From a virus (lineage: Duplodnaviria; Caudoviricetes), in the IMG/VR virus record IMGVR_UViG_3300037602_000018, positions 39,050-103,049 of that record: 64,000 nucleotides of DNA. One strand, given 5' to 3'. The notes below the pieces were generated by a model. That model did not search any database and was not told the DNA's origin. It worked only from the letters and a program-made list of their open reading frames with translations. This document shows positions 2,886 through 62,889 of the stretch, piece by piece. The stretch's first letter is position 1; the number at the start of each line of letters is the position of its first letter. A program made the translations under genes and the position numbers.

Positions 2886-5800
2886 TTAGTAATAAAATTG
2901 CATCTTTTCTCTCACTTTATAATCAGCAAATTTCAATAATGGCACTAAATCTTGTACATCCTTTTTAAGTTTATATGTACCTTTTCTTATACCTGTTTCA
3001 TATTGTTGTATTTCAAGATGAAGTAAATCAGAGAATCCTTGTTCAAATACATCTACTACATTTTCTAATACACTTAATGATACAGCAGGATTTCTAAGAA
3101 TTCTAAATGTTTCTCTTGGATTTGCAAAGAAAGCAAGTTCAGAATATAATCTTCTTGTAAAAAATGCTGACCAGTAAATTCTAGTTTGAAAATCTTCATT
3201 AGATTCATCATCTCCTAATTCTTTAAGAGCTAAACTTGCAAATAAAGCTAATGCTATAAATCCAAATTCTGTAACAGCTTTCATAACGTTACCTTTCTGA
3301 TAATCAGATAAACTATCCCATGAACCTTGAGCAGCTTGTAAGTTAAATCCTAATTCTTTCATGCCTTTATAAACTCCAACAATTAATCTTGTTGTTGAAG
3401 TATAATATCCTTCTTTAAATTCCTTAGTTGCTTCAGAATAAAAAGTATTATCATCATTATCATCTTTAACATACTTAAAGCTTCTCCAACGTCTATCAAA
3501 CCCTCTTATAATAAACTTTCTAAACATCATAATAGCTTTACCAAACCAATATCTCTGAAGAATAGAATTCATTTCAGAATCATATTGTCCAAATAAATCA
3601 GCTTTGGTATCCCCTATTAAATTAGTGATGGATGTTTGACCTTCTATAGAATCGTGTGTATTTCTAATATCAAATTCATTATGTTTTACATTAGAATTTA
3701 ATTCAAGTTTACCATCTTTTACTGTATAGGCTTCTGCTAATGTCATAGCTTTAGATTTAGAAACTACATTACCTTTACTATCTATATATTCTCTTTTAGC
3801 ATTCATTACTTTAATACTGGATAATACAGCATACATAACAGAAGCATGTTGGTAATATTCAGAACCATTCATCATAAACCCTAAATTAGATTTTGATAAT
3901 AAAGCTTTTAATCTTGAATCTTTTGCAAATTCATTCTGTAGAATTTTAAAATCTGAAAGACCTTTAAACTTATCTAAAAGTAATTGAGTTTTACTATTTT
4001 GATTTACAGTACCTTGTTCAGTCATTATATTAGTAAAATCTTTCCAAAATAACTGTTCTCCTTTAAAGAAATTTTTAAGATATTTATTTCCTGTAGTTTC
4101 TATAATTTGAGAAATCTTACCTTGAATGGTGTTCACTATAGCAGCAGGAAAGTTAAAAGATAACATAAGATTACCAGTATAACCAGCTATGGCTCCAGAT
4201 AACTTATTTATATCCATTCCTAAAAAGTCTCCAGCCTCAATAGCTTTTATTCCATAAAGTCTGTTTTCTATAGTAGATTTAAGAGCCTGATACTCATTAC
4301 CCATATAGAAAGGCTTTTTAAGAGATTTATCACTTCTTAATAAATTAGTAATTTTCTCCTTGTTGATACCTTTAGTTTCAAAATATAATTTTTGAGCTGA
4401 AGCTTCTAATATTAATTCTACAGTAGGAGCAACATTCTTCATGTTGTAGTAATTAGTAGAAGTATAATTATTCATTAAGAATATAGTTCCTAAATCTAAT
4501 GATTGATCTTTAGGATTTACTTTACCTCTGTAATATATAGGTACATCTCTCTGAATATGATTGGAGGCATCTCCTTTCATCATAGTGCTTCCAAATTCTG
4601 TATCATCAGCTTGTTTTTTAGTATATTTATCAAGCTTCATCAGCTCTTTAACTTTACCTTCAGACATCATTTCAAAAGTAGATTTAGTTACAGAAGGTAG
4701 TTTTACAAAATAAGTACCATCTAAATCTTTATTTAATCTACTTCCTTTAGGTAATTTACCATCCTGAGCTAACACATCATTACGTAAGAAAGCTATAAAT
4801 TTAAGTTGAAATTTATTTAATTTACTAAATGCAGGATTTTTCCATTTATCTATAGGTTTACCTGCTTTAACATTAGCTTTTCTCCATGCTTTAAATTTAT
4901 TATTAGCTTCTTTATATTCTTTTGAATCTAATCCGTATTCTCTCTCAGCTTCTAATTGAGCTAAGTACAATTCAGTATTTTGATTATAATATTCTGCTTT
5001 ATATGGGCTTGTTAAATAATAATTACCATCTTCATCCTGTTGATATAAACCTTTATACATTTGTTCAGGATTTATACCAGAATTAGCTTTTTTAAATTCT
5101 AAAAACTCATCAATAAAATTCTTACGAGAATTCATAAATTGATTACGAGTTTTTTGTTGTCCTTCATCAAGTATTACAGATACTAACTGAATTACTTGAG
5201 AATTTAAACTTTTAGGGTCTTTAAGACTAGCCGTAGCATAACCCATATCAAAAGCTCCTTCTTCAAAATATTCATTCCATATATTAATTTCTTCCTGTAA
5301 AATATTATTTTTATTTTCTAATAGTTTTTCTATAATATATTTATCTTTTTCTTCGCCTTTTAAACCTAAGTTATTAGCTTCTTTTTGAAAATTATTTCTA
5401 TATTTAGATTCTACTTTAGTAGATTTTTGAGCCATTCTTTTAGAGAACTCAGATTTAATAATTTTATTTCTCTCTTTAATTAATTGATTTAATACATTAC
5501 TTGCTTCAGTAAAAGCTTTTTGTATTTCAGAATCATTAAGAATTTCATTAGCTTTATCAGCTACATTTTCAAAAGCTCCAAAATAATTATCAATAGCCAT
5601 AAGATATTCTGAAGTAACAGTTCCTTCAGCTATTTTTTCTTTTAGTCTTATTAAACTATGTTCAGAACTATTTAATACATAATCAGCAAATTTTAACATT
5701 GCTAATTTAGCATCTTTATCCTGTAAATCTTTTAATTCTGTATGTAAAGATTCTAATTCATTTTCATAAGATTTACCTTCTTCAGTAGCTTTTTTACCCA

Positions 5801-57002: not shown

Positions 57003-57506
57003 TTACATAAGTAATTTTGAAATAGTAGTATTTTTAAAGTGACTAAACATACTATCTTTAATAGTTCTCCCTTTCCACGAAATATTAGGATTAAGTACCC
57101 AATACTCCTTATCAGAATTCTCATAGATTTTAATTTGTAGATAAACCCCTAACCTATAAAGTCTATCCAATACCTTATTAACTCTGTTTTTACCTATACC
57201 AAATATATCTACAAGTTCAAGTACTGTAGTATCATTATTAAGTGGTTTAAGAGAATTAGTATTAAATTCAGACACAGCAGCCATATAAGTAATAATACCT
57301 ATTTCCTCCATAGAAAGAATCTTAGTACCTTTTAATCTTAATACAAGGGAAGTATTCATTTTAAAAAAATCTTCCATTACATGTACTCCAGTGCCTTTAG
57401 GGAAGTTATTAGGTCTCTTATTAACCTCCTTAATTTCTCCAGTTTCCTTATCTATTTTAGCAGCAACCTCATTGTGCTTTAATTTTAATTCCTGTGTATA
57501 ATTCAT
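57003..57506 (-). CDS. RepL-like winged-helix (replication initiator/regulator) protein
   Basis: D.ETGEI N-terminus, HTH (LVDIFGIGKNRVNKVLDRLYRLGV), YWVLNPNISWKG C-terminus. Confidence 0.7.
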   Translation of the reverse strand: MNYTQELKLKHNEVAAKIDKETGEIKEVNKRPNNFPKGTGVHVMEDFFKMNTSLVLRLKGTKILSMEEIGIITYMAAVSEFNTNSLKPLNNDTTVLELVDIFGIGKNRVNKVLDRLYRLGVYLQIKIYENSDKEYWVLNPNISWKGRTIKDSMFSHFKNTTISKLLM

Positions 57507-57676
57507 TTTATCATTTTAGATTACAAATATAAAAAAAATTTTTTTATTTTTTTAAAAATTTTATGTATCAATGAAAGCGTAGACTAGATAACAATTCACC
57601 CCCACTCTTTCAAATTATTGGGAGTTAGGGGGTATTCAATCCTAATTCCATTTATTCTTTCTAATTAATTTAAAAC
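57507..57676. promoter_or_regulatory. Divergent control region between late and early modules
   Basis: Strand switch; TAtaTTTG at 57524-57531 (minus); A/T palindrome; G/C-rich hairpin at 57598-57633. Confidence 0.6.
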
Positions 57677-57979
57677 TTGAGAATTATGAATACTGTTAGC
57701 TTAAAAGAGTACTGCGAAAAGAATAACATCCGTGAAATAGGCAGCGTATTTTCCTCTAAGGACAATAACTATCCTACTATCATGATGGTTAATGATAAAG
57801 GAGAGAGAAGTCCTTTCATGCTATCTCGTAATGCTGGAGAGCAATGGCCTGTTGGTACATCACCAAGAGTATTTGCTAAAGAGGCATACGTTAGTACATT
57901 CATGCATGAAACATTGAATACTGAAGTGTCTCGTATTAGTACTGGTAGCAATGTTGGTACTGATGAGCTATTTGCATAG
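57677..57979 (+). CDS. First plus-strand (early) gene, hypothetical; likely start ATG 57686
   Basis: ORF with C-ending codon bias, followed by a terminator. Confidence 0.75.
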   Translation: MRIMNTVSLKEYCEKNNIREIGSVFSSKDNNYPTIMMVNDKGERSPFMLSRNAGEQWPVGTSPRVFAKEAYVSTFMHETLNTEVSRISTGSNVGTDELFA

Positions 57980-57981
57980 CT

Positions 57982-58011
57982 ATAAGGGGAGTGTAATACT
58001 CCCTTTATTTT
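57982..58011 (+). terminator. Intrinsic terminator
   Basis: ATAAGGGGAGT-gtaat-ACTCCCTTTAT followed by TTT. Confidence 0.75.
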
Positions 58012-58039
58012 GACTCTTGTATAACTTAAATTAATTGTT

Positions 58040-58219
58040 ATGAAATATCAACATATATTAAACAATAAGCTATTGTTTGAAACAAATAGTGCATCAGATT
58101 TCTTTCATTACTTAATGAATAATCCAGATGCTAAACAAGCTAAAAATAATATTCTTTATAATCTATTAGAATCTAATAAAGGATATATTTGTGAGATGAG
58201 TACAACTACTCAAGAATAA
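58040..58219 (+). CDS. Small hypothetical protein (59 aa)
   Basis: Hand-translated MKYQHILNNK...; AT-rich leader. Confidence 0.5.
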   Translation: MKYQHILNNKLLFETNSASDFFHYLMNNPDAKQAKNNILYNLLESNKGYICEMSTTTQE

Positions 58220-58271
58220 CACATTAAAAAACCTAAAAAGTTCTTTTATTCCTAACACTTGTTTTGATTGA

Positions 58272-58311
58272 TAAATAACCACAAGTTTAATAGGTTTCTT
58301 GTGGTTTATTT
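58272..58311 (+). terminator. Hairpin (terminator or processing site)
   Basis: AACCACAAG/CTTGTGGTT stem followed by TATTT. Confidence 0.5.
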
Positions 58312-58419
58312 AATTAATAATGAAGGGATTAGTTAGAGTGTTTATCAACAAACCCTAATATTCACCTTATTATCAATCAATAATAAATTATCGTTAATCA
58401 ATAATTAAATAACTAAATT

Positions 58420-58746
58420 ATGAAAAGTGAAATATTTGAAGATGTTTCTGACATTAATACTTCTATTAAAATAGGAGATAAAGTTAAAGTGTACGATGGT
58501 TCATCATTATCTGCAATAGGTCATGATGAAGAAGTATATATTGTATATCCTTATCCAGCTATAACTGGAAGTAAATCTAAATTACAGGACATGATAGGAA
58601 CTGTTGTAGAAATAAACAGACCTTATTATTGTTCAGCTTGTTTTAATAATAAACTTTACAGATGTGATTTAGTAATTCAATTAGGTGAAGGTAAATTTAG
58701 AACTAATAGTACAATGGTAACAGTAGGCAGAATTGTATTTGATTAA
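58420..58746 (+). CDS. Hypothetical protein (SH3/KOW-like)
   Basis: IKIGDKVKV.DGS motif. Confidence 0.75.
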   Translation: MKSEIFEDVSDINTSIKIGDKVKVYDGSSLSAIGHDEEVYIVYPYPAITGSKSKLQDMIGTVVEINRPYYCSACFNNKLYRCDLVIQLGEGKFRTNSTMVTVGRIVFD

Positions 58747-58810
58747 TGGAAATAATTAACATTTACTAATCAAAAGTAGTTCAAAAAATTAATAACTAAA
58801 TATATAAATT

Positions 58811-58993
58811 ATGACTTTAGCAAAAGAAATGAGAATAAATTCTCTAGGAGGATGTTCTTTACCAGCAATGAAAACATCTTTAGAAGTACAAACATCAAAA
58901 TATCACATGTCACATAGTAGTTCACCACCTGTTAATGATCCAATCAACAAAGGTTTTAATTGTGGTAATGGTCATTTTGTTAAATACTTTTAA
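58811..58993 (+). CDS. Small hypothetical protein
   Basis: ORF with AT-rich leader. Confidence 0.45.
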   Translation: MTLAKEMRINSLGGCSLPAMKTSLEVQTSKYHMSHSSSPPVNDPINKGFNCGNGHFVKYF

Positions 58994-59003
58994 ATTAATT
59001 AAA

Positions 59004-59297
59004 ATGAAAAAGTTAACAATCATTTTATCAATATTAATTACATGTATTATAACATCATGTGATTCTAGTATTAAAAGAGTTGGTGTAAATACCTCAACTT
59101 CAGAATTAGTTGTTCCAGATAGTACGCATTACGTAATAGGTTATGATATTAATTCAGAAGAAGAAAAGCTTATTAATGTAGAAACTAATAAAATCGAATA
59201 CATTGTAAAAAAAGATAAAACTGGATTTGGAATATCTATTACAATATTTATTGGTTTCATAATATTTATGGTAATAGCATTAATATTCTATTATTAA
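59004..59297 (+). CDS. Lipoprotein with C-terminal TM helix
   Basis: Start revised to MKKLTIILSILITCIITS-C; C-terminal hydrophobic helix. Confidence 0.7.
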   Translation: MKKLTIILSILITCIITSCDSSIKRVGVNTSTSELVVPDSTHYVIGYDINSEEEKLINVETNKIEYIVKKDKTGFGISITIFIGFIIFMVIALIFYY

Positions 59298-59300
59298 AAT

Positions 59301-59537
59301 AAAACTCTTTGTTTGAAGGTAAACAGTACATATATTTAGAGATGGGTTTGACCAGAAACTAAAGAAGTAGAAATAGTACAAACAACTGTATTAGTTATCA
59401 GTTGTAGTTTATTGGATAATTGTGTATTAGTGAAGATTATAAAGTTTATCAGGTTACTTAGAGTATGAGTCTTTATAATATCAGGAAACTAATTAATCAT
59501 CCCATAACTAAACCAGTAATGGTGGGCAAAGAGTTTT
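59301..59537 (+). ncRNA. Putative structured ncRNA (about 237 nt)
   Basis: Closing stem AAAACTCTTTG/CAAAGAGTTTT; inner ATGGG/CCCAT, ACAACTG/CAGTTGT, ATTATAAAG/CTTTATAAT and ACCA-GTAA-TGGT. Confidence 0.55.
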
Positions 59538-59539
59538 TT

Positions 59540-59630
59540 TAATACCATAGTCCAAATTGATGAAATATATAACTAATTATTTAATTAATAATATAGAATA
59601 TAAAGTAAGATAAAGTAGATTATGGTATTA
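59540..59630 (+). ncRNA. Putative stem-closed RNA element (about 90 nt)
   Basis: TAATACCATAGTC/GATTATGGTATTA, 13 bp with one G-U. Confidence 0.45.
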
Positions 59631-59639
59631 TTTAACTAA

Positions 59640-60387
59640 TTAAGCTAGTTATAAAACAGCCACACAATAGGAAAACTTTAAGTTATTAAGTATAATTATA
59701 TTTAATAATGTATAGATTAATACAAGTGTAAAAAGGTGAGATGCCTTATTTAAATACTGTTGCAATATGTAGTTAATTCTACTTTTGTATAAATAATGTC
59801 TTAGTTGTACAGTCAATAATGGCAGATAGAGGTATGGATATTAGTCCTCTGAATTAAGGTAAAAAACATCCCTTATTTTTATTAACAACTGGTAATATGA
59901 TTAAAAGAGTGTGTCAGTTCACTCGTACAAACAAAGAAAATAGGTTAAACCTTGAAACCTTGTGATTATCTAGAAGGATATACGAGATACTGTCTATGCA
60001 AGTTAGACATAATCACTAAAAAAAGATAGAATATAAATTGTAATAATATTTTGATTTATAAAAAATAGTTTGTTATTAGATAAATCTATGATACTTTCTA
60101 TAATCATATAAATATTTAATTACATATTAAATCTATCCAAAGTACCAACTGTATTGTGATATGTTGGATAAAGTAATAATTGCACATTAAATCCCTATTG
60201 AAGTCTTGTGTGCTATGGGTTAAAATAAAAATAGACAACCCTGTGGAGGGTTCTTTAGTAAATTATCTGAACAACAGACTTACCTAAAGGAAACCAATTA
60301 CTTAATACTTTGAGGAGTTTACAGCAAGAGATAATTCATACTACGGAAGAAATAAAGTTGTATAAAGAACTTTATAGGATAGCTTAA
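59640..60387 (+). ncRNA. Putative large structured ncRNA (about 750 nt)
   Basis: Closing TTAAGCTA/TAGCTTAA plus TATAAA/TTTATA; many inner hairpins; no ORF of 60 aa or more. Confidence 0.5.
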
Positions 60388-60415
60388 ATTCGCGCAATCT
60401 TCTAATTATCTCGCG

Positions 60416-60480
60416 ACCATTTATAATAGTCCAGTGATGCTAAGTGTGACCACAAGAGTTGTACAGCTATTATAGATGGT
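60416..60480 (+). ncRNA. Putative stem-closed RNA element (65 nt)
   Basis: ACCATTTATAATAGT/GCTATTATAGATGGT, 15 bp with two G-U. Confidence 0.45.
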
Positions 60481-60512
60481 GCTAATAAATTATTAATCTT
60501 AAAGTTAAACAA

Positions 60513-61190
60513 ATGGAAACGAATAAGAAAGTACAAGTAATAATGTTACCAGCAAGTAAAAGTCATTTATGGAATAATATTTCTTATAATAATGGTAAAA
60601 TAATTGACCAGAGTTTATTTTATAACTCTAATGAAATTAAAGAAATAATTAATTATAAAGGTTTACAAATTAAACCTCAACATCTTTACATTTTATCAAA
60701 TGATGAGATTAAAGAAGGTGATTGGTGTGTTAAGATGTCTACTAATAGTGTATTGTTTGTAGATTGTGAGGATAATGAAAAATTAGCTAATGAGTTAAGT
60801 TTTAATTATAAAAAAATCATAGCTACTACAGATAATTTTTTAGGTTATGTTCATCAAGGCGCTATGAGTCAAAGATTTTTTACTCTACCTCAACCATCTC
60901 AAGGATTTATTGAAAAGTATGTAAAAATGTATACTCAGGGTAATCCTATTACTGAAGTGTTGGTTGAGTATCAAAATAGATATGAAGGAGAAACTGGCCC
61001 TACTAGGTTCCTAGGTTGTTTTCCTAGAATAAATCCTAAAGACAATACTATCACAATTCATCCTGTAAAGGATAGTTGGAGTAGAGAGGAAGTTATTGAA
61101 TTATTAAGAGAAGTCCATTATTTAGAAAAAGGGTTTAGTAAAAGTCAAACTAAAGCTATATTAGATAAATGGATTAAAGAAAATCTTTAA
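60513..61190 (+). CDS. Hypothetical protein (QHLYI.S..EIKEGDW...KKIIATTD family)
   Basis: ORF; motif recurrent in Bacteroidota phages. Confidence 0.8.
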   Translation: METNKKVQVIMLPASKSHLWNNISYNNGKIIDQSLFYNSNEIKEIINYKGLQIKPQHLYILSNDEIKEGDWCVKMSTNSVLFVDCEDNEKLANELSFNYKKIIATTDNFLGYVHQGAMSQRFFTLPQPSQGFIEKYVKMYTQGNPITEVLVEYQNRYEGETGPTRFLGCFPRINPKDNTITIHPVKDSWSREEVIELLREVHYLEKGFSKSQTKAILDKWIKENL

Positions 61191-61216
61191 ATTTAAGTAA
61201 ATATTAAAATTAAAAT

Positions 61217-61354
61217 ATGGAAATTGTAATAATAATATTAATAATTATTAGTACGTTATATCTTGGTCGTAATCAAAAAATTATAACTGAAAATCAACAA
61301 TTGTTAGAAAATAAGTTGACTAAAATATTAAGAAATGAAACTAAAATACCTTAA
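61217..61354 (+). CDS. Small membrane protein (45 aa)
   Basis: Hand-translated MEIVIIILIIISTLYLG... Confidence 0.5.
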   Translation: MEIVIIILIIISTLYLGRNQKIITENQQLLENKLTKILRNETKIP

Positions 61355-61958
61355 TATAAACGGACACGGAGTACTTGTAGATGAAAGTGTTAAGATTAAA
61401 GAAGGTGATACTGTTTTTGACAACTATGCAGGAATACATAATATTCAAAAGGTTAGAACTTGTGACTTAGATTCAATGCATTATAAAAATGGTAATTGGA
61501 ATAAAATCATTTTCGCAGAAAAAGAACTTAATCTTAATGTACCTATATTACCTAATTGGAGAGAATGGGAGGTTGAGCAAGAAGCAAAGCAATACAGTAT
61601 AAAAAGACATAAAGTCTTAAATTATGAATTAGAGTTTGCATTTTTAGCAGGTTACAACCACAATAAAGCTAAGTACACTGAAGAAGATTTAAGGAAAGCT
61701 ATTGAGATAGCTAAAAATTCTATGGGAGTAGATAATTGTGGAGAAGTATGTTATTCTAATAAATCAACAGATAGTATCATCCAATCACTTCAAAAAGTAC
61801 CTAAGTATATTGTGATGGAAAGTATCTTTTGCAGTAAAGATGAAGAGATATTAAGACGTCCTCATACTAAAAATGATTTAGAAGAAAAACCAAAATTAAT
61901 CACTAATTCAGAAGGTAAACAAGAAGGAATTATTAAAGAAATTATTTATGATAATTAA
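61335..61958 (+). CDS. Hypothetical protein, distant paralogue of 60513-61190
   Basis: IKEGD, KIIFA, YTEEDLRKA. Confidence 0.8.
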   Translation: MKLKYLNINGHGVLVDESVKIKEGDTVFDNYAGIHNIQKVRTCDLDSMHYKNGNWNKIIFAEKELNLNVPILPNWREWEVEQEAKQYSIKRHKVLNYELEFAFLAGYNHNKAKYTEEDLRKAIEIAKNSMGVDNCGEVCYSNKSTDSIIQSLQKVPKYIVMESIFCSKDEEILRRPHTKNDLEEKPKLITNSEGKQEGIIKEIIYDN

Positions 61959-62091
61959 AGAAATAATAAATAATGAGTTTTATTTATACATGAATGGTAA
62001 ACTTATTTACAAAAAATGGTTAAATCAATCCAGATCTGTTGTATTTGATATAATGACTTATGATAAAAATACTTTAAAATCTATTAAATAA
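61948..62091 (+). CDS. Small hypothetical protein (47 aa)
   Basis: Hand-translated MIIKEIINNEFYLYMNGKLIYKKW. Confidence 0.55.
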   Translation: MIIKEIINNEFYLYMNGKLIYKKWLNQSRSVVFDIMTYDKNTLKSIK

Positions 62092-62093
62092 TT

Positions 62094-62216
62094 ATGAAAC
62101 TTGAAAACTACTCTACTCAACAATTGAAAGATTTATCTAGTCTTATACATGATGAAATCATTAAAAGACAAAAGAAGAAAATTAAAGAATTAAAACAACT
62201 TATTTATTATAACTAA
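62094..62216 (+). CDS. Small hypothetical protein (40 aa)
   Basis: Hand-translated MKLENYSTQQLKDL. Confidence 0.45.
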   Translation: MKLENYSTQQLKDLSSLIHDEIIKRQKKKIKELKQLIYYN

Positions 62217-62223
62217 AAATAAT

Positions 62224-62422
62224 AAAACCATCTGATTCATTACAAACAGATAATTAGTCACTCTTTTTAGAGCATATTATCAACATCATCTAAGAGGTGT
62301 TTAGGTTTGAATAAATATATTTTACAGCTTAAAAAAATTTAGAGTTAATAATAATTAGCTATTATTTGATATGGCTGTATACTCTAAAAAGTATTCCGCA
62401 ATTAGAGTGGACAGATGGTTTT
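62224..62422 (+). ncRNA. Putative structured ncRNA (about 200 nt)
   Basis: Closing AAAACCATCTG/CAGATGGTTTT; inner CAAAC/GTTTG, GATAAT/ATTATC, AACATC/GGTGTT, TACAGC/GCTGTA, TCCGC/GTGGA. Confidence 0.55.
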
Positions 62423-62431
62423 TTAAAATAT

Positions 62432-62692
62432 AAATTACCTGCTGAAGATTAACAATAAACAGTATCGAAATTAAATCCTTTGAAACAACAGGTATAGGGG
62501 CCTACGTGAGCAAGACTCCAGAGAAGTTTATAGTAAACCAAGTTACGTTGTTAATTGTAAGATATTTAATAAGAAGTTAAATCCGTGAGTAGCCTTTACA
62601 AGGAACTGGATACTAATGAGTGATTATTAGTTGCTAGAAATAGTGGTAAGACTTAAATTAATATTCACACTTGGGAATGTGACAGGTAATTT
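62432..62692 (+). ncRNA. Putative structured ncRNA (about 260 nt)
   Basis: Closing AAATTACCTG/CAGGTAATTT; inner ATTAACAAT/GTTGTTAAT, ACTAAT/ATTAGT, GCTA-GAAA-TAGT, TCACA/TGTGA. Confidence 0.55.
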
Positions 62693-62733
62693 TTTTAATT
62701 AATTAAATCTAACTAAAATTAAAATTAATAATT

Positions 62734-62889
62734 ATGAGTAATGCAAGACCACAATCTGTAAACAGACAGATTAAAAGAGGACATTTAGTACTAGCAGTAG
62801 TTGGTACAGAAACTAAATTATTACCTACAAAACAATGTTATTCAGTAATAGATAAAGAAGGTAATATTATCTGGAAAGTAAAAGTTTAG
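62734..62889 (+). CDS. Small hypothetical protein (51 aa)
   Basis: Hand-translated MSNARPQSVNRQIKRGH. Confidence 0.55.
   Translation: MSNARPQSVNRQIKRGHLVLAVVGTETKLLPTKQCYSVIDKEGNIIWKVKV

What the first reader, a model, noticed from the sequence alone, without database searches (positions are those of the whole stretch)
59301..60480. Back-to-back array of four stem-closed non-coding RNA modules in a 1.2-kb ORF-free gap
Seen: the gap is tiled by units at 59301-59537, 59540-59630, 59640-60387 and 60416-60480. Each is closed by an 8-15 bp terminal helix, often followed by a U-run. G-U pairs and a GNRA loop (CCA-GTAA-TGG) work on the plus strand, matching early transcription. The units share no obvious primary repeat. 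Inference: a polycistronic ncRNA cluster released by processing at the closing stems, possibly anti-defence decoys, antitoxin mimics or scaffolds. I recognise no known family.
Basis: partly seen in the sequence, partly recalled or inferred. Interest (0 to 1): 0.75.

Follow-up and report, generated by a model that had tools for sequence, protein, structure and literature searches.

The report
Two tandem structured phage RNA genes
The gene-free 1.2 kb of this crAss-like phage holds two separate conserved folded RNA genes, not four stem-closed modules; the larger one belongs to the same family as a very abundant, unexplained transcript of the cultured phage phi14:2.

Summary
The gap 59298-60512 has no credible ORF and the four closing helices exist. 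As a class, such helices are no more frequent than in shuffled sequence. Comparison with about 100 related contigs redraws the map.

A four-helix RNA of about 240 nt. Its closing stem covaries.
- **RNA-X (59942-60492).** About 550 nt, with nine helices including a pseudoknot. It takes in unit 4 as its 3' hairpin and the 3' part of unit 3.
- **Covariation.** RNA-X has 31 of 62 pairs changed on both sides; RNA-Y has 12 of 26. No shuffle in 500 reached either count.
- **Strand.** A U.G wobble in P6, kept in 23 of 24 sequences, fits plus-strand RNA.
- **Known families.** Rfam matches neither RNA.
- **phi14:2.** A covariance model of the RNA-X 3' domain hits the g004-g005 gap at 56.6 bits. That gap was published as an abundant, early, persistent lncRNA.
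- **Unsupported parts.** Unit 2 and 59631-59941 have no solid support. Unit 3's closing stem conflicts with the conserved fold.

Function is unknown. My best guess is stable trans-acting RNAs that bind a conserved host machine. Earlier notes of this scan appear to describe the same families on other genomes.

The parts
58935..59297 (+). Upstream early ORF (120 aa, signal/lipobox-like N-terminus and C-terminal hydrophobic segment). Its stop codon abuts RNA-Y.
   Evidence: One search lists the ORF. It has no Pfam or PHROG hit. RNA-Y also starts within about 10 nt of an upstream stop codon in phi14:2 (g002, OmpA-domain protein) and in L009.
59298..59540 (+). Y1 is the closing stem 59298-59311/59527-59540, whose A-run and U-run form part of the helix. 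Y2 is 59318-59324/59407-59413. Y3 is the hairpin 59383-59388/59399-59404. Y4 is 59501-59504/59523-59526.
   Evidence: A profile search found homologues in 103 fetched loci. On the 13-sequence alignment A3, 89.3% of cells pair. 12 of 26 pairs change on both sides against 7.1 +/- 1.4 in shuffles (0/500), and slid controls give 1-4. RNAalifold recovers Y1 and Y3 on its own. The core pattern occurs in 91 viral contigs.
59540..59630 (+). Status unresolved.
   Evidence: Fold z-score is -3.3. The only look-alike is the spacer between RNA-Y and RNA-X in L050, 73% identical over 111 nt. No covariation test was possible.
59631..59941 (.). No conserved element was detected.
   Evidence: nhmmer found no significant homologue. 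The only matches are three weak ones (E 0.0018) to window 59881-59931. Rfam gave nothing.
59942..60492 (+). RNA-X gene, about 550 nt. P0 is 59942-45/59957-60 with a conserved 11-nt loop. P0b is 59962-69/60009-16. P1 is 60025-30/60132-37 and P1b is 60039-43/60120-24. P2 is 60138-44/60306-12. P3 is the hairpin 60145-49/60163-67. P5 is 60328-35/60405-12. P6 is 60416-29/60467-80. The conserved 3' tail GCUAAUAAA is 60481-60489.
   Evidence: nhmmer found colinear conserved blocks. On the 24-sequence alignment A1, 92.1% of cells pair. 31 of 62 pairs change on both sides against 12.6 +/- 2.2 in shuffles (0/500), and slid controls give 7-17. There is one copy in the genome. Conservation stops sharply at both ends.
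60155..60159 (+). 5' strand of the pseudoknot (PK), in the loop of P3. It pairs with 60319-60323.
   Evidence: The pair takes five covarying forms: UGUAA/UUACA, UGUGA/UCACA, UGCCA/UGGCA, AUGGA/UCCAU and UGUCA/UGACA (helix 7). phi14:2 has UGAGAA/UUCUCA.
60313..60327 (+). Near-invariant junction AGGAG-U, the PK 3' strand UUACA (60319-60323), and GCAA. This is the core of the fold.
   Evidence: Invariant and nearly invariant columns are listed.
60416..60480 (+).
   Evidence: U.G is kept in 23 of 24 sequences and is C-G in one. One pair reads A-U, G.U or G-C. The tip varies from 4 to about 100 nt.
60513..61190 (+). Downstream early gene (225 aa, phrog_15656, function unknown). It is the homologue of phi14:2 g004.
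   Evidence: It adjoins RNA-X in only 3 of 41 loci examined (40 non-redundant members plus the compact L177 form), so it is not a fixed partner.

Best explanation
The gap carries two independent non-coding RNA genes on the plus strand, inside the rightward early transcription unit of a crAss-like phage.

- **RNA-Y (59298-59540).** A four-helix RNA of about 240 nt whose two ends pair.
- **RNA-X (59942-60492).** About 550 nt. Conserved sequence blocks form nine helices, one of them a pseudoknot between the P3 loop and the strand just 3' of P2. Inserts of variable length sit at the helix tips.
- **Published relative.** RNA-X belongs to the family of the phi14:2 g004-g005 transcript, which is very abundant from the earliest time point and does not decline.

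Inferred, not shown:
- Both RNAs are made with the early genes, which in phi14:2 are transcribed by the injected virion RNA polymerase.
- They persist because compact folds with paired or hairpin-capped ends resist nucleases.
- They act in trans by binding a conserved partner. I favour a host machine for translation, RNA processing or RNA surveillance over a phage protein, for three reasons: the junction nucleotides are nearly invariant while all neighbouring proteins differ; the family often lies among phage tRNA and tmRNA genes; and RNA-Y is shared with non-crAss Cellulophaga phages.

The confidence given is for 'two real structured RNA genes with these boundaries'. For the host-machine mechanism I would give about 0.3.
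For: - **Homologues.** nhmmer and pattern scans gave about 40 non-redundant RNA-X members and 103 loci with RNA-Y.
- **Covariation, RNA-X.** 92.1% of cells pair. 31 of 62 pairs change on both sides against 12.6 in shuffles (0/500), and slid controls give 7-17.
- **Covariation, RNA-Y.** 12 of 26 pairs change on both sides against 7.1 (0/500), and slid controls give 1-4. RNAalifold recovers Y1 and Y3 independently.
- **Strand.** The conserved U.G wobble in P6, 62 G.U against 22 A.C cells, and co-orientation with flanking ORFs all fit the plus strand.
- **Non-coding pattern.** Invariant blocks are separated by inserts of 4 to about 200 nt.
- **Link to phi14:2.** Model R1 hits NC_021806 3184-3363(+) end to end at 56.6 bits, E about 1e-11. 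P0, P2, P3 and the pseudoknot are readable in the sequence.
- **Published expression.** bioRxiv 10.1101/2020.03.07.982082.
- **Phage type.** 7 of 9 tested contigs have a Crass capsid.
- **Context.** No conserved protein neighbour. tRNA or tmRNA genes lie within 3 kb in about 11 members.
- **RNA-Y outside Crassvirales.** Its core is 100% identical in the non-crAss phages phi4:1 and phi17:2.
Against: - There is no expression data for this phage. No RNA run holds the stretch, so transcription and RNA ends rest on analogy with phi14:2.
- I derived both structures by eye from the same sequences on which they were then counted. This inflates 'cells paired', though it inflates the compensatory changes less.
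- Several helices (most of P6, and P3) are nearly invariant, so they say nothing either way.
- Thermodynamic support is modest: z = -2.5 for RNA-X.
- Nothing ties either RNA to a partner, and tRNA adjacency is absent in this genome (the nearest tRNA in the early direction is about 7 kb away).
- RNA-Y begins directly after a stop codon and ends in a U-run, so it could be a 3' UTR or terminator structure and not a separate gene.
Confidence: 0.85

Rival explanations
1. One reading: four separate stem-closed RNA modules, each released by processing at its closing stem.
For: All four helices exist. Unit 1 is a true stem-closed conserved RNA. RNA-Y lies 8-218 nt upstream of RNA-X in six loci, and RNA-X copies abut within 3 nt in L042, which suits processing from one transcript.
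Against: Unit 3's closing stem is not conserved and clashes with the conserved fold. Unit 4 is an internal helix of RNA-X: conservation continues 5' of it through P5, the junction block and P2. Unit 2 has one weak look-alike. The number of long helices is within the shuffle range.
Confidence: 0.07
2. RNA-X is a self-processing ribozyme or an RNA-only assembly. It would cut itself out of the early transcript at its conserved ends, or multimerise as ROOL and GOLLD do.
For: It has sharp conserved 5' (AGGUUAAACC) and 3' (GGUGCUAAUAA) ends. Copies lie head to tail 3 nt apart. The junction nucleotides are near-invariant and there is a pseudoknot core. It is ornate and large, and like GOLLD and ROOL it lies near tRNAs.
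Against: It matches no known ribozyme model. I recognised no catalytic motif. The compact form (L177, 272-280 nt) lacks P5, so much of the RNA is dispensable.
Confidence: 0.1
3. The elements act in cis. RNA-Y is a structured 3' UTR or terminator of the upstream gene, and RNA-X is a leader that controls the downstream gene.
For: RNA-Y starts right after a stop codon here and within about 10 nt of one in phi14:2 and L009, and it ends in a U-run. RNA-X ends 20 nt before the start codon at 60513.
Against: Genes flanking RNA-X differ in nearly every locus. In phi14:2 and L022 RNA-X lies downstream of the homologue of the gene that follows it here. Some members sit between tRNAs. The simple scan finds no plus-strand terminator. 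The U-run of RNA-Y pairs with the 5' A-run as part of helix Y1.
Confidence: 0.1
4. The conserved blocks work as DNA, for example as a promoter array, a replication origin or a packaging signal near the genome end.
For: The locus is 3.5 kb from the right end of a genome with direct terminal repeats. Block B contains a TAGAAT hexamer.
Against: Compensatory changes keep the pairing. G.U wobbles fit one strand only. The phi14:2 homologue is an abundant RNA. Promoter-like hits are at shuffle level.
Confidence: 0.03

Closest known systems
Abundant early 'long non-coding RNA' of Cellulophaga phage phi14:2, g004-g005 intergenic region (Drobysheva et al., bioRxiv 10.1101/2020.03.07.982082)
   Same: It is homologous to RNA-X. 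Model R1 scores 56.6 bits over its full length at NC_021806 3184-3363, and P0, P2, P3 and the pseudoknot are readable from about 2912. It lies in the same early rightward region and next to the same protein family (g004 corresponds to window 60513-61190).
   Different: The paper reports a transcript only, with no structure, family or function. The order is reversed: in phi14:2 the RNA follows the g004 homologue, here it precedes it. The phi14:2 sequence is strongly diverged; P5 and P6 are rebuilt by compensatory changes, and AGGAG reads AUGAG.
GOLLD (RF01998) and ROOL (RF03087), large ornate RNAs of phages and prophages
   Same: They are large (several hundred nt), multi-helix, phage-borne, often next to tRNA genes, and of unknown function. 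They are the best analogy for what RNA-X may work like.
   Different: There is no sequence or structure match at E<=10 in the window or in 12 other members. The hosts differ (Bacteroidota phages). Multimerisation has not been tested.
Phage-encoded tmRNA (RF00023)
   Same: It is the neighbour of RNA-X in phi14:2, L055, L053 and L022, and it is the second abundant phi14:2 'lncRNA'.
   Different: Neither RNA-X nor RNA-Y is a tmRNA, and this phage has none.
Bacterial Y RNA / YrlA (RF02553)
   Same: Like a Y RNA, RNA-Y has paired 5' and 3' ends that enclose a variable module. In one member (L210) that module is a permuted tRNA-like element with a weak YrlA hit (26.6 bits, E 0.088).
   Different: The window's RNA-Y has no tRNA-like insert and no YrlA hit. 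The weak hit is far below the gathering score of 69. The phage has no TROVE/Ro60 gene.

Membership tests
phi14:2 g004-g005 lncRNA family (RNA-X) | Sequence and structure homology to NC_021806 about 2912-3364 | tested here: met
   A model built without phi14:2 hits it at 56.6 bits, E about 1e-11, over model positions 1-160. The window scores 115.5 bits. The pseudoknot, P2 and P0 are readable by eye.
phi14:2 g004-g005 lncRNA family (RNA-X) | Lies in the early, rightward region of a crAss-like phage, on the strand of the early genes | tested here: met
   Crass capsid hit. The strand switch is at about 57.6 kb. Flanking ORFs are co-oriented.
phi14:2 g004-g005 lncRNA family (RNA-X) | Very high transcript level from the earliest time point that persists late | not testable with these tools
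   No RNA run holding this DNA is listed.
GOLLD / ROOL | Match to the Rfam covariance model | tested here: not met
   No hit at E<=10 in window 59000-60800 or in 12 other members.
Group I intron | Match to RF00028 and insertion in a host gene with flanking exons | tested here: not met
   No Rfam hit. The element lies between unrelated ORFs or tRNAs. The order of helices differs from P3-P7 topology (inference).
Y RNA / YrlA (for RNA-Y) | Match to RF02553, and a TROVE/Ro60 partner gene | tested here: not met
   No hit in the window. Only a sub-threshold hit in the L210 insert. No TROVE domain in the phage genome.
   Only short two-copy direct repeats are present in 58900-60700.
Intrinsic terminator | G+C-rich short hairpin followed by a U-run on the transcribed strand | tested here: not met
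   No plus-strand site in 57400-62800. The U-run after RNA-Y pairs with the 5' A-run.

The most novel reading that the evidence does not exclude
RNA-X is a new class of large catalytic or self-assembling RNA. It would be either a ribozyme that excises itself from the early transcript or an RNA-only or RNP machine that takes over host translation or RNA surveillance. It is made at very high level in the first minutes of infection by environmental crAss-like phages. RNA-Y would be a companion RNA, like a Y RNA, that docks tRNA-like modules.
Probability: 0.15. Interest if true: 0.9.

Novelty: new variant of a known kind. Interest (0 to 1): 0.7.

Why it matters
Crassvirales are among the most abundant phages known, and what their early region does is largely unknown.

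- **A structure for a published mystery.** The abundant 'lncRNA' of the one well-studied environmental crAss-like phage now has a fold, defined boundaries and about 40 non-redundant relatives. The second phi14:2 'lncRNA' is identified as a tmRNA.
- **Direct tests become possible.** Helix-breaking and compensatory mutations, pull-downs, probing and cryo-EM can all be done in a culturable system (phi14:2 on Cellulophaga baltica).
- **Two families missing from Rfam.** One is a pseudoknotted RNA of 270-570 nt. The other is found in more than 100 fetched loci and crosses phage family boundaries. Both add to the small set of large phage RNAs of unknown function.
- **Annotation errors.** Cultured Cellulophaga phages carry 'hypothetical protein' calls that overlie RNA-Y.

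Tried and rejected
- **Rfam.** Gathering and E<=10 scans of the window, 12 RNA-X members and 5 RNA-Y loci gave nothing relevant.
- **blastn against GenBank phages.** The whole gap and the compact L177 form gave no match.
- **Single-sequence nhmmer.** The 5' half found nothing. RNA-Y appeared only after an all-against-all comparison of the regions flanking RNA-X.
- **Expression.** No RNA holder is listed for this stretch.
- **Genome-contig scan with the 19-mer.** Six of 7 hits are chance matches in coding DNA. The seventh (L239, binned as an archaeal MAG) is a true member.
- **Cellular homologue.** Model R1 found nothing in 151 genomes of the order of a Croceimicrobium MAG. This says only 'not found in those searched'.
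- **Conserved protein partner next to RNA-X.** None found.
- **TROVE/Ro60 gene in the phage.** None found.
- **AGGAG junction as a Shine-Dalgarno sponge.** Weakened, because phi14:2 reads AUGAG and other members read AGGAU or AGGUG.
- **Group I intron, RNase P, 6S.** No model match, and the helix topology differs.
- **Supplement of PMC10690425.** Not held, so I could not check whether these RNAs are among its 10,006 candidates.
- **Literature searches.** I found no paper on these families beyond the phi14:2 study.

Full report
**Setting.** The window is the last 64 kb of a 103,049-bp viral record with direct terminal repeats.
- The phage is crAss-like. It has a Crass capsid match at E 4e-153 and giant ORFs of 1334, 2090 and 1380 aa. 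G+C is about 27%.
- Genes run leftward up to about 57.5 kb and rightward after that. The finding therefore lies 2-3 kb into the rightward arm. In the related phage phi14:2 this arm is the early region.
- The source appears to be pond metagenomes.

**Checking the observation.**
- The gap 59298-60512 has no ORF above 55 aa.
- The four closing helices are real, and there is no primary repeat.
- Long helices are not rare here. I counted 4 helices of at least 13 bp with at most one mismatch, against 1.95 +/- 1.42 in dinucleotide shuffles, and 13% of shuffles reach 4.
- Fold z-scores run from -1.9 to -3.8.
- Rfam gives nothing, even at E<=10.
- So the sequence of this genome alone cannot decide the matter.

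**RNA-X.**
- *Homologues.* I fetched 34 loci that encode relatives of the downstream protein. nhmmer then found colinear, near-identical blocks in two of them, covering only window 59940-60510. Pattern scans of viral, metagenome and genome collections and profile searches raised this to about 40 non-redundant members.
- *Pattern.* Invariant blocks of 10-50 nt are separated by inserts of 4 to about 200 nt. This is typical of a structured RNA and not of a coding region.
- *Fold.* The blocks pair into nine helices (P0, P0b, P1, P1b, P2, P3, PK, P5, P6; coordinates are under 'parts').
- *Covariation.* On the 24-sequence alignment A1, 92.1% of cells form standard pairs. 31 of 62 pairs change on both sides, against 12.6 +/- 2.2 in shuffles (0 of 500). 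Slid controls give 7-17.
- *Pseudoknot.* The pairing between the P3 loop and the strand 3' of P2 takes five different complementary forms within the family and a sixth in phi14:2.
- *Strand.* P6 keeps a U.G wobble in 23 of 24 sequences. One of its pairs runs through A-U, G.U and G-C. Overall there are 62 G.U cells against 22 A.C cells. Together with the co-oriented flanking ORFs, this fits plus-strand RNA.
- *Boundaries.* Conservation starts at AGGUUAAACC and stops after GGUGCUAAUAA. In L042 a second copy begins 3 nt after the first ends.
- *Variants.* Length ranges from 272-280 nt (L177, which lacks P5) to about 570 nt. A 'type 2' variant has a different P3 and pseudoknot.
- *Copy number.* The genome has one copy.
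- *Caveat.* I derived the structure by eye from these same sequences, which flatters the percentage of cells paired. The compensatory changes and the slid controls are the stronger evidence.

- Unit 4 (60416-60480) is helix P6 of RNA-X.
- Unit 3 (59640-60387) is not a unit. The 3' arm of its closing stem (60381-87) lies inside the variable insert of P5. Its 5' arm lies 300 nt upstream of the point where conservation begins.

**Link to published biology.**
- The downstream gene is the homologue of phi14:2 g004.
- Drobysheva et al. (bioRxiv 10.1101/2020.03.07.982082) report two intergenic regions, g004-g005 and g005-g006. [quoted passage not shown] The function was left open.
- A covariance model of the RNA-X 3' domain, built without phi14:2, hits NC_021806 3184-3363(+) end to end at 56.6 bits, E about 1e-11 by a rough calibration.
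- P5 and P6 of the phi14:2 copy are rebuilt by compensatory changes. P0, P2, P3 and the pseudoknot can be read upstream, starting at 2912.
- The first phi14:2 'lncRNA' is therefore a member of this family.
- The second is a tmRNA at 4031-4500 (ARAGORN; Rfam 46 bits, E 1.4e-16). The record does not annotate it.

**RNA-Y.**
That led me to compare the regions flanking RNA-X with one another. By profile search it is also conserved in L017, L009, L210, L030, L031, L014, L006, L028 and phi14:2 1284-1490.
- *Covariation.* On alignment A3 the four helices pair in 89.3% of cells. 12 of 26 pairs change on both sides, against 7.1 +/- 1.4 in shuffles (0 of 500). Slid controls give 1-4.
- *Independent check.* RNAalifold recovers Y1 and Y3 on its own.
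- *Distribution.* The core 23-mer occurs in 91 viral contigs, and 103 fetched loci match the profile. The core is 100% identical in the non-crAss Cellulophaga phages phi4:1 and phi17:2, where a 'hypothetical protein' call overlies it.
- *Position.* RNA-Y ends 8-218 nt upstream of RNA-X in six loci. Here the distance is about 400 nt.

**The rest of the gap.**
- Unit 2 resembles only the spacer between RNA-Y and RNA-X in L050.
- Window 59631-59941 has no significant homologue.
- I leave both unresolved.

**Context and mechanism.**
- No protein gene is a constant neighbour of RNA-X, yet the RNA blocks are nearly invariant in phages whose capsid scores range from 98 to 602 bits.
- About 11 members have tRNA or tmRNA genes within 3 kb on the same strand. 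L022 places RNA-X inside an array of 20 tRNAs and a tmRNA.
- This genome has no tmRNA, and its nearest tRNAs in the early direction are about 7-9 kb away across the genome end.
- Model R1 found nothing in 151 sampled genomes of the order of a Croceimicrobium MAG.
- *Shown:* two conserved, covarying, plus-strand RNA structures, and homology of RNA-X to an abundant phi14:2 transcript.
- *Inferred:* co-transcription with the early genes; stability that comes from the fold; action in trans on a conserved partner, most likely a host machine for translation or RNA metabolism (about 0.3).
- *Not excluded:* self-processing or self-assembly (about 0.1) and cis roles (about 0.1).

**Comparison with known families.**
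- RNA-X resembles GOLLD and ROOL in kind: large, ornate, phage-borne, near tRNAs, function unknown. It fails their membership test.
- RNA-Y resembles Y RNAs in layout, and one member carries a permuted tRNA-like insert with a weak YrlA hit. The window's copy has neither the insert nor the hit, and the phage has no TROVE gene.
- I found no paper that describes either fold.
- Notes e1-5855069 and e1-5869933 suggest the scan met the same families on other genomes. I could not compare sequences with them.

**Verdict.** This is a real and interesting feature with the wrong map. There are two RNA genes instead of four modules. One of them gives a structure and a family to a published, unexplained, highly expressed phage RNA.

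Noticed in passing
L051 (NC_021806.1, phi14:2) 4031-4500 +: An unannotated phage tmRNA (ARAGORN tag peptide GSSVQKLAMVA; Rfam tmRNA 46 bits, E 1.4e-16). It fills the g005-g006 gap, so the second published phi14:2 'lncRNA' is a tmRNA.
   Followed up: yes
L022 4472-9945; L055 8101-8550; L053 9767-10142: RNA-X sits inside or next to phage tRNA arrays and tmRNA genes. L022 has 20 tRNAs plus a tmRNA around it. In L177, L190 and L199 a compact RNA-X starts about 20 nt after a tRNA-Met.
   Followed up: partly
L175, L223 and L177 (inside P1 of RNA-X); L201 about 4952-5167 (between RNA-Y and RNA-X): A conserved module of about 70 nt (CCUCAGUNCCUAAG ... AAAAGAGCUGAG) occurs both as an insert in RNA-X helix P1 and free-standing between the two RNAs. 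It may be a third, mobile RNA element. It is absent from the window.
   Followed up: no
L210 1767-2022; L006 8797-8994: Some RNA-Y members carry tRNA-like inserts in their variable loops. L210 has a T-arm followed by a D-arm (permuted order) and a weak YrlA hit (26.6 bits, E 0.088). L006 has a cloverleaf-like insert and what looks like a second RNA-Y copy directly downstream.
   Followed up: partly
L331 (NC_021788.1, phi4:1) about 129600-129800; L051 1284-1490: In the non-crAss phage phi4:1 the RNA-Y core lies under a 52-aa 'hypothetical protein' (gp168), directly after an OmpA-domain membrane protein gene. The gene order is the same in phi14:2 (g002 then RNA-Y). This suggests a shared gene-plus-RNA module and a wrong ORF call.
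   Followed up: partly
L042 / L226 / L198; L151; L218: Some phages carry two RNA-X copies in tandem: a 'type 2' copy followed by a 'type 1' copy in L042, and two copies each in L151 and L218.
   Followed up: partly
It has no Rfam hit at E<=1 and no nhmmer homologue among the fetched loci.
   Followed up: partly
L183 160-191 +: A DUF805b RNA (RF02914) match above the gathering score (47.3 against 35.6 bits), about 220 nt upstream of RNA-X.
   Followed up: no
L044 2808-2879; L057 9721-9815: Suppressor-type tRNAs (anticodons CUA and UUA) lie near RNA-X in two relatives. They hint at stop-codon recoding in those phages.
   Followed up: no
window 59881-59931: Weak similarity (E 0.0018) to stretches just downstream of RNA-Y in L252, L317 and L307. 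The stretch contains the hairpin GAGUG-N8-CACUC.
   Followed up: no
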